In this document: piece after piece, positions 9,709-13,068 of the stretch
Position numbering within the stretch: the first letter of the stretch is position 1
Layout: the number at the start of each line of letters is the position of its first letter
DNA from: a virus
DNA: 64,000 bases
Direction: 5' to 3' (one strand)
IMG/VR virus record: IMGVR_UViG_3300028559_000015
Location: 1-64,000 of that record
Notes under the pieces: generated by a model
What the model was told of the DNA's origin: nothing
Databases searched by the model: none
What the model saw: only the letters and a program-made list of their open reading frames with translations
Made by a program: the position numbers and the translations under genes

Positions 9709-9870
9709 ATGCCAGCAATGACATTAGCGAAGTCGGGCAAGCGTTATACTCATGAAGAATGGGTTAAGTTAGACGCCGAAGAACGCATACAGCTTCTTAG
9801 TATGTATGGCCCGGGTTATACAGACGAAGCGTGGAAAAAGCATTACGGTAATAGAAAGAAAAATAAATGA
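9709..9870 (+). CDS. Small hypothetical protein
   Basis: AGGAGG RBS before ATG 9709. Confidence 0.55.
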   Translation: MPAMTLAKSGKRYTHEEWVKLDAEERIQLLSMYGPGYTDEAWKKHYGNRKKNK

Positions 9871-10280
9871 AACATAAGATGTACTGTATCTTTGCTAAAG
9901 AGAGCGTTCAGAAGATGAACGGTATCCGTGGCAAAATGTGTACGCAGGCAGGACATGCTTATCTACACGCATTTTGGGATGCAACTATCCCTAATGCGAA
10001 TCATACTACGATTGCTGAACCTGATATTCTTGTTAAGAAGCAGGAACAGGCACTAGCGTATGCTCACGGTGATCATGCATATAAGATCACTCTTATCGTA
10101 GACACTGTTGATGAGTTGAAAGCATTGCAAGAAGCATACAAGAATGTCTGCGGTACTGCACTAGTGACTGATGCAGGATTCACTGTTTTCAATGAACCGA
10201 CTACGACTTGTCTTGGCATCGGTCCGATACGAGAAGATAACATCGGTGAAGATTTGAAAGCACTAAAGACGTTTACTTAA
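9867..10280 (+). CDS. pth2: Peptidyl-tRNA hydrolase type II
   Basis: GKMCTQAGHA...KITL...VTDAGFT...TTTCLGIGP. Confidence 0.88.
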   Translation: MKHKMYCIFAKESVQKMNGIRGKMCTQAGHAYLHAFWDATIPNANHTTIAEPDILVKKQEQALAYAHGDHAYKITLIVDTVDELKALQEAYKNVCGTALVTDAGFTVFNEPTTTCLGIGPIREDNIGEDLKALKTFT

Positions 10281-10443: not shown

Positions 10444-10514
10444 TTTTTAATACCCAAAACACTGTACAACAGTGATCGTTTATACTATAGTCAGTAAATA
10501 AGAAGGAAACACAC

Positions 10515-11078
10515 ATGAAGATCAATCTACGCAAGGCCAACGCTATTCAAGTAGCGATCAACGAAACTGTCAAGGGCCTTGAATTCAATGCTACGGCTAG
10601 CATTAACGAGTTCCAAGACGCTGACAAAGAGATTCTTGCTGCGTCCAGCAAGTTCAGCGGCAACCTCGCTCGCCGTCTCGCTTTGCTTGATGCCCTTTAC
10701 GAGATTCGTAAGGCGGTCGCGTCGGCAAACGATAGCGCAGGCATCGATGGTCGTCTCGCTGACGTTGCCCGACTTGAAAAGGACCTTCAGTTCTACAGCA
10801 CGTATGCAAAGGCTTCGGTCATTACCGATTCCGCTGTCATCAACGGCAAGCTAGAGAAGATTCGTAACCGCAAGGAAGATGCTTATTCTTACCGAGGCGA
10901 GACGGTCGACACTTCTATCTTTAACGAAAAGGTACTTGAAAGTTTCAAGGGTATCGTTGCTTCTACTAAGAAGCAGAAGCAGAAGCTGCAGGACGAACTC
11001 CTTGAGTTGAACGTCCGCACTGAAATTGAGTTTTCAGCGGCAACTGTTACTACGCTCACCAACGAGAAAATCCTTTAA
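10515..11078 (+). CDS. Coiled-coil protein, possibly DIP1984/septicolysin-like
   Basis: Helical heptads; C-terminal KQKLQDELLELNVRTEIEF. Confidence 0.6.
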   Translation: MKINLRKANAIQVAINETVKGLEFNATASINEFQDADKEILAASSKFSGNLARRLALLDALYEIRKAVASANDSAGIDGRLADVARLEKDLQFYSTYAKASVITDSAVINGKLEKIRNRKEDAYSYRGETVDTSIFNEKVLESFKGIVASTKKQKQKLQDELLELNVRTEIEFSAATVTTLTNEKIL

Positions 11079-11087
11079 GGGGGTATG

Positions 11088-11501
11088 ATGAAAGTCGGTC
11101 TTAGTTACAGTCGTTGTGTTAAGGATATTGTTGACGGCAAGGTCAACATCGATGATGTTTTGGTGGTAATCGCCCGAACCGACTTTGACCCTACTAACGA
11201 TAAGCAGTGGGGAGGAATTTGGGATGGCTACACCGGAGGCGGCCTGTTTAGTCATGCTGAATGGCATGGCTACCCTGACGAGCAGAAGTTCCGTGAGGTA
11301 ACTTTAGAACTCTATAACAGAGGGAAGCTGCATCAGCCACGCAAGTTTGGAGTAATGCCCAAACGTCGTCCAGAGATTTGGTTGGAAGTAGTTCTTCTTG
11401 ACTCTGAACTAGAGCGTAACCCTGCTGCTAAAAATGCATGGGAACAGTTTCAGATGATTGCTGGTCTAACCGACGTTAAGGTAGATCACAACTATCAATA
11501 A
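11088..11501 (+). CDS. Conserved hypothetical phage protein
   Basis: GLSYSRCVKDI...GKLHQPRKFG; GGGGG RBS. Confidence 0.7.
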   Translation: MKVGLSYSRCVKDIVDGKVNIDDVLVVIARTDFDPTNDKQWGGIWDGYTGGGLFSHAEWHGYPDEQKFREVTLELYNRGKLHQPRKFGVMPKRRPEIWLEVVLLDSELERNPAAKNAWEQFQMIAGLTDVKVDHNYQ

Positions 11502-11538
11502 GTTTGGTAGGTCGGCCCCCTAGTAGGGGTAAACTACC

Positions 11539-11766
11539 CGGAAGGAAAAGAGAGACGAGAGTAGGCATTTACGTTTCAGTAATGAAACATTGATCAGGCG
11601 CTTGAAACGCTCCATACTAGCATGAATCAAACTTATTTTGTTGCACATTGTGGTTTGAGTATAAGTTAGTTTTTGCAGTTTGTTTTTTGTTGATTGCTTG
11701 ATAGGTTGTTCTCTTGAGAGACACCGATGCAGATTGCACAGTCTATCACTTACTTTTTTCCTTCTG
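11539..11766 (+). ncRNA. Candidate ncRNA with 14-bp closing stem and internal TTG heptad repeats
   Basis: CGGAAGGAAAAGAG/CTTTTTTCCTTCTG; TTG at 7-nt spacing 11641-11696; T-run after the stem. Confidence 0.6.
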
Positions 11767-11798
11767 TATTTTTTTTTAAATAATAGGCAAAATAGTTC

Positions 11799-12104
11799 TT
11801 GACATTGAGGTCAAGAGCAGCTATATTAAGTAAATCAAGAAAAGCAAAAAAAGTTCTTGACATTTTATAAGGAACTATATATCTGTAGGAGGAAAGAATG
11901 GTTGCAACACAAGAAACAGATAATGCTATTAAAAAATTCTACAGAGATTTGGGATACACGGACAGAATATCTGGAAAACAGCGAAAAATAAATCTAGACG
12001 GTCTTGTAGTTAAGTGGTATAATGAGGGGTTCGATGCTTCATATCCTTTCTGGGATGCTGAAGCATCTTAAGCAGCAAAATAAGTAGTATTAGTTCTTTG
12101 AAAT
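11799..12104 (+). promoter_or_regulatory. Tandem sigma70 promoters and boxA-like element upstream of the large RNA
   Basis: TTGACA..TATATT (11799-11827); second TTGACA near 11857; TAGACG-17-TATAAT (11995-12023); GTTCTTTGAAAT (12093-12104). Confidence 0.6.
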
Positions 12105-12114
12105 TGTTGATGAC

Positions 12115-12222
12115 ATACTCATTAGATGAATACTGTTGGCGTAATGGGGAAGTGGTATCCCTCCCGTAAAGCGGTGGTCCTGGCGTTGGTTCGAATCCAA
12201 CCAGTGTTCTTCTAATGAGTAT
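12115..12222 (+). ncRNA. Stem-clamped tRNA-like ncRNA
   Basis: 21-bp stem 12115-12135/12202-12222; D-loop-like AGTGGTA; T-arm GTTGG-TTCGAAT-CCAAC. Confidence 0.65.
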
Positions 12223-12229
12223 AAGAATT

Positions 12230-13068
12230 GGGGGCATAGCCTCACTAGGGTAGCAGGGAGTAATCTCTGTCAAAGCAAGGTTTCCTATAAACTTGCGCCA
12301 GCAATGGTCCATCTATGCAAGCCTGAGTTAGAGTTGACTCGCTTAAGCGAAAGCAACTCCCGTCTGTAGAAAGGCGGTAGGCAGTAAGTCAGAGTTGAAG
12401 TCCGAAAGGATAGGAACAGAGCCAGTCGGTGAGTTCTAAGAGGGTTGGCGCCCGAACTTCAACTAGCCAAACTGACGAATGTTGAATACTAACAGGTAGT
12501 TATTGAGTCTGACCTCGCAAGGGAAGGCAAGATAGCAATACAAACGAGGAAGGGATAACCGGAATCGTGAAGTATGATTGAGTATCCCGCAAGGAGAAAG
12601 ATACTAGGTGTGTTGTATTCTGTATCTAACAAGATATGGAGCAACTGGAGCAGCACATCTTCGTAGGTTCGCAAATTGCATAATGGTAATGCAACAGTTT
12701 TATGTACTGTAGATTCTAGGTTCAACTCCTAGTTTGTAACACAAAAGCGAAAGACTGCTCCGGTATATGTTTAAAGGTGCTTAATACCACACTCGCAAGG
12801 GAATGTGGTTCAGGGATGCTCGCAAGGCGGAACTGATTGATCGGAAAGAAAGCGTAGGTTCTTAGCGGAATCGAACTGCTCGCAAGGCAGGCGAAGGATA
12901 GATGGTCGAGTAGACATATGCGACGAGTCAAACGCCAGACTCTAAAAAAGGCAGCATTGAGTGATACTAGGTGACTGTAAAAAGCTCTAGTGGATAACGG
13001 TAGAACGGTCCTCGCAAGGGATTCGGTAATGACCAAAGACACTCGCTACAAGCCCGTAATCTCAGGGT
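12230..13068 (+). ncRNA. Large ornate RNA, probably GOLLD class, with embedded tRNA-like domain (12667-12740)
   Basis: ~840 nt without a credible ORF; about six CGCAAG-capped hairpins; GGTGTGTTGTATT; terminal hairpin GCCC-GTAATCTCA-GGGT; located in a phage tRNA array. Confidence 0.75.

What the first reader, a model, noticed from the sequence alone, without database searches (positions are those of the whole stretch)
10515..11766. Coiled-coil protein operon ending in a clamped ncRNA with TTG heptad repeats
Seen: after a 187-aa coiled-coil gene and a 137-aa gene, a 228-nt segment is closed by a 14-bp stem and followed by a T-run. Inside are short hairpins (GTTTCA-GTAA-TGAAAC, CTCT-TG-AGAG) and a U-rich tract with TTG at exact 7-nt spacing: 11641, 11648, 11655, then 11673, 11680, 11687, 11694. 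TTGCACA recurs at 11734. Known: ring proteins such as TRAP read periodic RNA triplets. The C-terminal LxELNxxTEI resembles DIP1984-like proteins (from recall, unverified). Inference: an undescribed ribonucleoprotein in which an oligomeric coiled-coil binds one heptad per subunit.
Basis: partly seen in the sequence, partly recalled or inferred. Interest (0 to 1): 0.78.

Follow-up and report, generated by a model that had tools for sequence, protein, structure and literature searches.

The report
Phage heptad-UUG RNA with partner protein
The "empty" 270 bases behind these two genes encode a real folded RNA that shows UUG triplets every 7 bases and always travels with one small helical protein gene in large tRNA-rich phages, so it is probably an undescribed RNA-protein pair whose job is unknown.

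Summary
Window 11499-11769 (+) is a conserved structured RNA. Its core, 11539-11766, is 228 nt and is closed by a 14-bp stem. Covariation supports the fold. This is the only run of 4 or more TTG at 7-nt spacing in the 64 kb, and it is rare in shuffles. Across relatives the UG stays fixed and the spacers vary.

The RNA lies next to the ORF1 gene in all 57 viral loci fetched: upstream in 18, downstream in 39. It also does so in three cultured phages and in three GTDB genome loci. Each of 5 whole records holds one copy. ORF2 is dispensable.

No Rfam, Pfam or NCBIfam family fits, and the DIP1984 resemblance was not reproduced.

Best reading: an uncatalogued RNA-protein pair in which ORF1 protomers read the phased UUG units, as HutP and TRAP read phased triplets. 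Its function is unknown. Earlier notes show the scan already found this pair on other DNA.

The parts
10515..11078 (+). ORF1: 187 aa, 20.7 kDa, no proline, helical-looking protein. It is the conserved partner gene of the RNA.
   Evidence: ORF. phrog_25230 (unknown function), E 2.9e-8. 1552 homologues. 1911 representatives of 50%-identity clusters at E <= 0.001. Invariant in the 28-row alignment: M1, L5, R6, K7, L57, N72, L81, N166. Composition.
11085..11501 (+). ORF2: 138 aa, a widespread phage protein of unknown function. It is an accessory insert, not part of the conserved pair.
   Evidence: No Pfam, PHROG or NCBIfam family. 3435 homologues. Next to ORF1 only in the window, L001, L003 and L004. 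L002 keeps only its 3' remnant.
11499..11769 (+). Full structured RNA as matched by the covariance model. It begins at the ORF2 stop codon.
   Evidence: R1 match at 302 bits. RNAalifold on 8 sequences: 56 pairs, 17 with compensatory changes. No Rfam match at E <= 10.
11506..11538 (+). 5' hairpin P0, ahead of the closing stem.
   Evidence: Helix 1: all 4 pairs change on both sides, 93.8% of cells paired.
11539..11552 (+). P1 closing stem, 5' strand. It pairs with 11753-11766.
   Evidence: 14 bp. All 14 pairs show changes on both sides, 96.3% of cells paired. Recovered by an independent MAFFT alignment.
11753..11766 (+). P1 closing stem, 3' strand.
11557..11566 (+). P2, 5' strand. It pairs with 11741-11751.
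   Evidence: 9 pairs, 5 with changes on both sides.
11741..11751 (+). P2, 3' strand.
11573..11588 (+).
   Evidence: Present in the window. Other sequences that still pair sit at the same place in L004, L005 and L006.
11596..11612 (+). P3 hairpin with the loop CUUGAAA. The same loop is seen in the second RNA subtype.
   Evidence: (helix 4).
11617..11669 (+). P4/P5 domain. The P5 loop carries phased TTG at 11641 and 11648; the TTG at 11655 lies in the 3' strand of the stem.
   Evidence: Helices 5 and 6 have compensatory changes in 4 of 5 and 6 of 6 pairs. The TG columns carry high information.
11673..11700 (+). Single-stranded heptad array: TTG at 11673, 11680, 11687 and 11694 (another at 11698 is out of phase).
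   Evidence: Unpaired in the independent consensus fold. UG is invariant and the spacers vary.
11704..11725 (+).
   Evidence: Helices 9 and 10. Absent in 16 of the 22 aligned rows, where the pairs read gap; in the L008-L017 group the array there runs on for 6 units.
11734..11740 (+). Last TTG unit (TTGCACA), just before the 3' strand of P2.
   Evidence: The TTG is conserved in the alignments.
11769..11777 (+). Run of nine T after P1. It may be a termination tract in this clade only.
   Evidence: Present in the window and L001-L003, absent in L004-L007.
11799..11827 (+). Promoter-like site of the next transcription unit. It marks the end of this one.
   Evidence: TTGACA, 17 nt, TATATT: 11 of 12 matches. 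This is a consensus match only.

Best explanation
Window 11499-11769 encodes a stable structured non-coding RNA of about 270 nt with a 228-nt core. It belongs to an uncatalogued family.

**Anatomy.** A long closing helix (P1 and P2) holds together a hairpin with a CUUGAAA loop, a hairpin whose loop shows two or three UUG units 7 nt apart, and a single-stranded track of four to six more UUG units at the same 7-nt step.

**Proposed mechanism.** The RNA works together with the product of the neighbouring gene ORF1, a 21-kDa proline-free helical protein. Several ORF1 protomers would bind side by side on the track, one per UUG unit. The result would be a particle of defined size, in the way HutP and TRAP read phased triplets.

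**Shown.** The RNA fold, the conserved phase, and the tight genetic linkage with ORF1.

**Inferred.** Binding, stoichiometry, and any role in the phage's tRNA and translation programme.
For: **Fold**
- 56 pairs, 17 with compensatory changes, in 8 sequences.
- On 22 sequences: 90.4% of cells paired, 41 of 56 pairs changed on both sides, covariation score 0.547 against 0.114 or less when partners are slid, and 0 of 500 shuffles as high. That alignment was fitted to the model.
- An independent MAFFT alignment gives 24 of 28 pairs with compensatory changes.
- The second subtype gives 21 of 44.
- G-U pairs are frequent in the stems. This fits an RNA read from the + strand and not double-stranded DNA.

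**Phase**
- The UG columns are near 2 bits while the spacers are near 0 (alignment).

**Linkage**
- R1 hits 29 of 57 ORF1 loci, all on the ORF1 strand.
- R2 finds a copy in L024 cut off by the contig end.
- L029 and the 26 distant loci carry a second subtype right after ORF1.
- Phased-TG counts are positive in 37 of 60 loci (strict) and 42 of 60 (one miss allowed). The union misses only L034, L056 and L061. Background is 17 and 47 runs in 822 kb.
- The RNA is upstream of ORF1 in 18 loci and downstream in 39, while other neighbours change.
- There is exactly one copy, next to ORF1, in 5 of 5 whole records of 90-333 kb.
- Cultured phages CcrPW, vB_BpoS-Kabachok and Vibrio phage 2.275.O have the gene (profile E 9e-25, 1e-22, 3e-17). 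Each has an unannotated 273-311-nt gap with phased TTG behind it. R2 hits CcrPW at E 0.009.
- Three GTDB loci, two of them in complete Arenicellales chromosomes, have R2 hits right after the gene (E 2e-19, 3e-6, 3e-6).

**Precedent**
- HutP reads three XAG motifs separated by four spacer nucleotides on each face of a hexamer (PMC2425495, passages read).
Against: - No binding, oligomer or structure evidence exists.
- ORF1 is not basic overall: pI 7.8, family median 6.5. No known RNA-binding domain was found.
- Related phages share gene order anyway, so part of the adjacency is inheritance.
- In some members the phase is loose. L061 has one 8-nt step, L191 has UCG units, and the Arenicellales copies have roughly 12-nt steps.
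- Expression is not shown. Only contigs from RNA libraries covered parts of the stretch.
- A pure 5 x TTG pattern is not specific for the pair. Only 2 of 80 pattern-only loci carry ORF1.
Confidence: 0.5

Rival explanations
1. Cis-acting autoregulatory element. ORF1 binds the phased UUG units in its own transcript, as leader or trailer, to control its own translation or stability. TRAP, HutP and ribosomal-protein leaders work this way. On this reading there is no free-standing particle.
For: RNA and ORF1 are on the same strand and close together. In L008-L017 the RNA ends about 24 nt before the ATG. TRAP and HutP are regulators of this kind.
Against: The RNA lies upstream in 18 loci and downstream in 39, so no fixed relation to the ribosome-binding site exists. 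Other genes can lie between them: ORF2, an omega-like gene, or a small ORF. The size and the multi-helix fold exceed what such leaders usually need.
Confidence: 0.15
2. The RNA acts alone or with a host factor. It could be an RNA-only assembly like its neighbour GOLLD. Or the U/G-rich track could sponge or recruit a host single-strand RNA binder or nuclease. ORF1 would be co-expressed but would not be the ligand of the track.
For: GOLLD lies 840 nt downstream in the same tRNA cluster. RNA-only multimers of GOLLD and ROOL are reported (bioRxiv 10.1101/2024.12.08.627333; search listing and abstract start only). ORF1 has no recognisable RNA-binding domain.
Against: Adjacency with ORF1 survives rearrangement and a change of neighbours, and extends to bacterial chromosomes without tRNA arrays. 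The RNA subtypes follow the ORF1 clades.
Confidence: 0.2
3. Antagonist pair. The RNA titrates or neutralises ORF1, like a type III antitoxin or a CsrB-like sponge. ORF1 would be the active, possibly harmful, factor.
For: A tight two-gene linkage, and repeats that could soak up several protomers.
Against: No toxin-like or defence family was found. PADLOC gave three unrelated weak hits for three homologues. The repeat unit is 7 nt inside a folded RNA, not tandem units of about 36 nt. The setting is lytic jumbo phages.
Confidence: 0.1
4. Not an RNA: a DNA-level element (iterons, origin or packaging site), or a chance feature of a U-rich spacer.
For: Short repeats near a gene can be DNA binding sites.
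Against: Compensatory changes are strand-specific and include many G-U pairs. The 7-bp period does not match the DNA helical repeat.
Confidence: 0.03

Closest known systems
HutP with the hut terminator RNA of Bacillus subtilis (PMC2425495)
   Same: Triplets are repeated at a 7-nt step (three XAG with four spacer nucleotides). They come in two groups and are read by the subunits of an oligomer. Only the triplet is specified and the spacers are free.
   Different: HutP is a histidine-activated antiterminator acting on a short leader upstream of its operon. Here the RNA is a 230-270-nt multi-helix fold on either side of the gene, the triplet is UUG, and ORF1 shows no HutP family match at E <= 1. 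No binding is shown.
TRAP with the trp leader (recalled; mentioned in the abstract listed)
   Same: A ring of identical subunits reads phased triplets in single-stranded RNA.
   Different: TRAP has 11 triplets with 2-3-nt spacers (recalled), a beta-sheet protein and a cis-regulatory role. No TRAP family match was found.
GOLLD RNA (Rfam RF02032), present at window 12605-13068
   Same: A large orphan structured RNA of phages, found in tRNA clusters of lake phages.
   Different: It is a different RNA. The finding's region has no Rfam match at E <= 10. GOLLD has no dedicated partner gene that I know of (recalled).
Y RNA with Ro60 (PMC4201824; search listing only)
   Same: The 5' and 3' ends of the RNA form a long closing stem, and the RNA gene sits next to its protein partner's gene.
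   Different: No Y RNA family match. ORF1 is a 187-aa helical protein, not a Ro60 ring. No tRNA-like module was detected in this RNA.
RAGATH-27 (Rfam RF03100), named in earlier scan notes for a sister class of heptad-repeat phage RNAs
   Same: According to those notes, it is a helical-protein gene plus a heptad-repeat RNA in phage tRNA clusters.
   Different: RF03100 does not match this genome, T5 or CcrPW at E <= 1. The single hit, in Vibrio phage 2.275.O (E 0.84), is far from the locus. The ORF1 profile does not hit T5. Any kinship is untested here.

Membership tests
Any Rfam 15 family | Covariance-model match at or near the gathering score | tested here: not met
   Nothing in 10444-12127 at gathering scores. 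No match inside 11499-11769 at E <= 10.
RAGATH-27 (RF03100) | Match to the 86-position model | tested here: not met
   0 matches at E <= 1 in the window's own 89.9-kb record.
phrog_25230 (unknown function) | Profile match over the whole protein | tested here: met
   E 2.9e-8, residues 1-174 on profile positions 1-179 of 192.
DIP1984-like / Pfam PF20935 (DUF6847) | Profile match above the curated cut-off | tested here: not met
   - ORF1 itself shows no PF20935 at E <= 1.
- No match in the own record at E <= 10.
- 1 of 17 family proteins (L034) reached E 0.003, 18 bits, under the 27-bit cut-off.
- NCBIfam listed no DIP1984-type family for 9 family proteins.
- The ESM Atlas gave one cluster at 0.92 in which 19% of members carry PF20935. 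This is a lead only.
- That PF20935 corresponds to DIP1984 is my recollection, not a tool result.
HutP/TRAP-type phased-triplet readers | Triplets at a constant short period with free spacers in single-stranded RNA | tested here: met
HutP/TRAP-type phased-triplet readers | Protein homologous to HutP or TRAP | tested here: not met
   No such Pfam family at E <= 1 for the 17 family proteins scanned.
HutP/TRAP-type phased-triplet readers | RNA is a leader that overlaps a terminator or ribosome-binding site of the regulated genes | tested here: not met
   The RNA lies downstream of ORF1 in 39 of 57 loci and upstream in 18.
HutP/TRAP-type phased-triplet readers | Oligomeric protein binds the repeats | not testable with these tools
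Type III toxin-antitoxin (ToxIN-like) | Tandem direct repeats of an RNA unit of some tens of nt, ahead of an endoribonuclease toxin gene | tested here: not met
   The unit is 7 nt and sits inside a folded RNA. PADLOC gave no consistent hit. The features of ToxIN are recalled.
Y RNA / Ro60 | Ro60 (TROVE) gene next to an RNA with a closing stem and a tRNA-like module | tested here: not met
   A closing stem is present. No Y RNA match. ARAGORN finds no tRNA-like unit in 11499-11769. ORF1 is 187 aa with no TROVE match.

The most novel reading that the evidence does not exclude
A new class of ribonucleoprotein particle found in large tRNA-rich phages and a few bacteria. A folded RNA scaffold carries a ruler of UUG heptads. 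The ruler sets how many copies of a dedicated helical protein assemble, about six to eight. The particle then acts in trans on the host's tRNA, translation or RNA-decay machinery during infection.
Probability: 0.3. Interest if true: 0.85.

Novelty: categorically new. Interest (0 to 1): 0.78.

Why it matters
Orphan structured RNAs of this size are rare, and few come with an obvious dedicated protein partner.

- **Scale.** The protein family has 1911 representatives of 50%-identity clusters. It occurs in lake, marine and sewage phages and in two bacterial chromosomes.
- **What is missing.** Neither partner has a name or a function.
- **Testability.** The conserved phased UUG track gives a sharp hypothesis: one protomer per 7 nt. 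Cultured systems exist, namely Caulobacter phage CcrPW on strain CB15, Brevundimonas phages and a Vibrio phage.
- **Possible reach.** The answer could explain part of what jumbo-phage tRNA clusters do beyond supplying tRNAs.

**Caveats on novelty**
- Earlier notes of this scan describe the same pair on other DNA.
- A 2023 catalogue of 8495 unnamed candidate RNAs from IMG/VR (PMC10690425, passages read) may list it.
- My paper searches turned up no description.

Tried and rejected
- **Window's own sequences against cultured phages.** blastn of 10450-11900 and tblastn of ORF1 against the phage collection gave no match. Cultured relatives were reached only with the more distant homologues L016 and L034.
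- **Solved structures.** ORF1 alone and profile A4 gave only chance-level helical hits, E 0.06 or worse.
- **Homologues of L034 ORF1.** The search gave 3 near-identical proteins and no Pfam label, so it built no bridge to DUF6847.
- **PADLOC.** Three unrelated weak hits, taken as noise.
- **RF03100 and T5.** No match.
- **Pattern-only scan.** Only L143 and L090 carry an ORF1 homologue. Only L143 among the 80 hits R2 at E <= 0.01 under default filters, and L090 reached only E 0.016 with filters off. The bare pattern is not diagnostic, and the sample allows no frequency estimate.
- **Phased TG run upstream of ORF1 in L044.** It lies inside a 152-aa ORF and is taken as chance. I did not check the similar upstream runs that the looser count flagged in L039-L043 and L048-L053.
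- **Sequencing runs.** The DNA holders listed are mostly lake-water metagenomes. Four runs from RNA or presumed-RNA libraries gave contigs over parts of the stretch: 10471-10886, 10904-11098, 11364-11496, 11646-11768 and 11357-11832. Contigs show no ends, strand or level, so I draw no conclusion on expression from them.
- **Families elsewhere in the record.** PF04308 and PF01192 are not in the window's 89.9-kb record, which is estimated 26% complete, so this says nothing.
- **Helices 7 and 8.** These would pair part of the TTG track with the region before P2. They vary on one side only, with 78-83% of cells paired. I treat the track as unpaired, as.
- **Not done.** I built no joint model of the two RNA subtypes and made no pseudoknot search.
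Full report
**Setting.** The window is the first 64 kb of an 89.9-kb IMG/VR virus record that CheckV rates 26% complete, so it is a fragment of a jumbo phage. It carries 38 tRNA genes between 241 and 13897. A GOLLD RNA (RF02032, 192 bits) lies at 12605-13068. Most of the public runs listed as holding the DNA are lake-water metagenomes. The finding lies inside the tRNA cluster: tRNA-Met, tRNA-Asp, ORF1 (10515-11078, 187 aa), ORF2 (11085-11501, 138 aa), then 270 nt without a credible ORF, then a strong promoter-like site at 11799-11827.

**Checking the observation.**
- The MFE fold of 11500-11785 closes the segment with 11539-11552 paired to 11753-11766. That is 14 bp with two G-U pairs. The energy is -78 kcal/mol, z = -2.96.
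- The enclosed core is 228 nt, and nine T follow.
- TTG starts at 11641, 11648 and 11655, at 11673, 11680, 11687 and 11694, and at 11734.
- This is the only run of four or more TTG at period 7 in the whole window on either strand.
- Dinucleotide-preserving shuffles produced such a run in 11 of 20000 (core) and 45 of 20000 (U-rich tract only). None of them also had a second run of three.

**It is a conserved structured RNA.**
- ORF1 has 1552 homologues in the large protein collection, and 57 viral loci were fetched.
- blastn found the non-coding stretch in the closest loci.
- An 8-sequence alignment gave a consensus fold of 56 pairs, 17 of them with compensatory changes.
- A covariance model built from it (R1) matched the window and 29 of the 57 loci, always on the ORF1 strand.
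- On the 22 distinct matches, 90.4% of cells pair and 41 of 56 pairs change on both sides. The covariation score is 0.547, against 0.114 or less when partners are slid by 1-3 columns, and 0 of 500 shuffles reach it. All 14 pairs of the closing stem covary.
- That alignment is fitted to the model, so I repeated the analysis on a plain MAFFT alignment of the 21 cores. P1, P2 and the two inner helices came back, with 24 of 28 pairs compensated.
- Core length is held at 207-241 nt.
- G-U pairs are common in the stems, which points to an RNA read from the + strand.
- Rfam 15 has nothing here, even at E <= 10.

**The heptads are a conserved feature.** In the alignments the UG of each unit is invariant or nearly so, and the four spacer positions are close to random.
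- The window's clade has two or three units in the P5 loop, four in the track, a clade-specific hairpin, and one last unit.
- The L008-L017 clade lacks that hairpin and shows six units in a row.
- The track is unpaired in the independent consensus.

**A second subtype behind distant ORF1 homologues.** Loci L032-L057 have ORF1 identity of 26-30% and did not match R1. A broader model (R2) gave only weak hits just downstream of ORF1 there, plus a copy in L024 cut off by the contig end. Reading the 330 nt after ORF1 in 20 of those loci showed a clearly related element. It has outer closing stems, a hairpin with the same CUUGAAA loop, a 16-bp hairpin whose loop holds two UUG 7 nt apart, and a track of five UUUG or UUAG units that ends at the closing stem. 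RNAalifold on 16 of them gave 44 pairs, 21 compensated.

**Linkage with ORF1.**
- Simple counts of phased TG on the ORF1 strand, within -600/+900 nt of the gene, are positive in 37 of 60 loci (four or more exact) and 42 of 60 (five units, one miss allowed). The 60 are the 57 viral loci plus 3 cultured phages.
- Together the two counts miss only L034, L056 and L061. There I saw looser repeats by eye.
- Background is 17 and 47 runs in 822 kb.
- The RNA is upstream of ORF1 in 18 of the 57 viral loci and downstream in 39.
- Other neighbours change. ORF2 is adjacent only in the window, L001, L003 and L004, and L002 keeps just its 3' end. By the clustering, one clade has an 81-aa gene between RNA and ORF1 in 6 loci. 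The L018 copy matches RNA polymerase omega (PF01192, E 8e-10). A PF04308 RNase H-like gene often flanks the RNA; only the L014 copy was scanned (E 2e-15).
- 29 of the 30 loci tabulated have tRNA genes within 3.2 kb.
- In five whole records of 90-333 kb, R2 finds exactly one copy each, the one beside ORF1.

**Beyond metagenomes.**
- tblastn with distant homologues reached Caulobacter phage CcrPW (under two accessions), three Brevundimonas phages and Vibrio phage 2.275.O.
- The family profile confirms these genes at E 9e-25, 1e-22 and 3e-17.
- Each gene is followed by an unannotated gap of 273-311 nt with closing-stem sequences and phased TTG or UG. R2 hits the CcrPW gap at E 0.009.
- A pattern-limited scan of GTDB genomes found three loci: one binned phage-like contig full of tRNAs, and two complete Arenicellales chromosomes. 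All three have R2 hits directly after the gene, at E 2e-19, 3e-6 and 3e-6.
- The chromosomal copies sit among ordinary genes (ADP-ribosylglycohydrolase, sortase). They are not in a tRNA array, and their repeats are less regular.

**The protein.**
- ORF1 is 20.7 kDa and has no Pro, Cys or Trp. Its pI is 7.8, and the family median is 6.5.
- Conserved features include the N-terminal LRK and a lysine- or arginine-rich stretch near residue 152.
- It matches phrog_25230, of unknown function, and no Pfam, NCBIfam or PADLOC family.
- The hits that do appear are weak and to assorted helical families. The Vibrio phage record calls its homologue 'coil containing protein'.
- The family has 1911 cluster representatives at E <= 0.001, all 184-217 aa among the 150 listed.
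- I could not reproduce the DIP1984 resemblance. One of 17 family proteins touched PF20935 below its cut-off, and the ESM Atlas gave a weak lead.

**Interpretation.** Invariant short motifs at a fixed step, with free spacers, in a single-stranded stretch held out by a covarying scaffold, are what a row of identical binding sites looks like. HutP is the closest precedent for the 7-nt step. The ligand best supported by the genetics is ORF1. Adjacency survives inversion of gene order, insertion and loss of other genes, divergence to 26% identity, and transfer to a bacterial chromosome.

I therefore favour a free-standing RNA-protein particle (confidence 0.5). The rivals are a cis-autoregulatory element (0.15), an RNA that works alone or with a host factor (0.2), an antagonist pair (0.1), and a DNA element or chance (0.03). 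What the particle does is open. The company it keeps (tRNAs, peptidyl-tRNA hydrolase PF01981 at 9867-10280, GOLLD, omega-like and RNase H-like genes in relatives) suggests RNA or translation biology, but this is inference.

**Relation to earlier notes of this scan.**
- Notes on other genomes describe the same pair (e1-6105424, e1-5984361, e1-5978178, e1-6007087). They point to Caulobacter and Brevundimonas phages and to HutP/TRAP as the analogy. I checked those leads here and they hold.
- Other notes tie a sister class to RAGATH-27 and phage T5. For this family, neither RF03100 nor the ORF1 profile gives a match in T5 or in this genome.

**Verdict.** The RNA and protein families are uncatalogued, and the element is widespread and testable in culture.

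Noticed in passing
window 12605-13068: GOLLD RNA (RF02032, 192 bits, full model) lies 840 nt downstream of the finding. ARAGORN and Rfam both call a tRNA-Ile(UAU)-like unit at 12669-12740 inside it.
   Followed up: no
window 9867-10280: A 137-aa peptidyl-tRNA hydrolase PTH2 homologue (PF01981, E 1e-13) lies two tRNAs upstream of ORF1. It is conserved at this place in L001-L007.
   Followed up: partly
L018 3769-4002 (same cluster in L019, L022, L023, L025, L026): An 81-aa gene lies between the RNA and ORF1 in one clade. The L018 copy, scanned as 78 residues, matches RNA polymerase omega/Rpb6 (PF01192, E 8e-10, above the cut-off). So this is a phage-encoded omega-like protein inside the module.
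   Followed up: partly
L014 3199-3681 (same cluster next to the RNA in L008-L010, L013, L016, L017; one gene away in L027, L028): A 160-aa PF04308 RNase H-like protein (E 2e-15) repeatedly flanks the RNA. It is a possible processing or partner enzyme. Only the L014 copy was scanned.
   Followed up: partly
L192 and L193 (Arenicellales bacterium nBUS_45 and nBUS_48 chromosomes): The ORF1 homologue plus RNA (R2 E 3e-6) sits in two complete bacterial chromosomes. It lies between an ADP-ribosylglycohydrolase and a sortase gene, with no tRNA array. I did not decide whether this is a prophage remnant or a cellular copy.
   Followed up: partly
window 11690-11716: Four TTG also lie at an 8-nt step (11690, 11698, 11706, 11714), overlapping the end of the heptad track and the inserted hairpin. 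Conservation was not examined.
   Followed up: no
window 11795-11880: Two near-identical promoter-like segments (AGTTCTTGACATT...) follow the RNA within 60 nt. The first scores 11 of 12. The same GTTCTTGACAT motif follows the RNA in L001, L002, L003, L005 and L006.
   Followed up: no
window 11499-11510 and the same place in relatives: The RNA starts with a conserved AGTTTKG that abuts or overlaps the stop codon of whatever gene lies upstream. In L018 it follows a TATAAT box directly. This could mark a transcription start or a processing site.
   Followed up: no
L044 3937-3965: A perfect TTGACA, 17 nt, TATAAT promoter-like site sits directly upstream of ORF1 in a subtype-2 locus. It suggests that ORF1 plus RNA form their own transcription unit there.
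   Followed up: no
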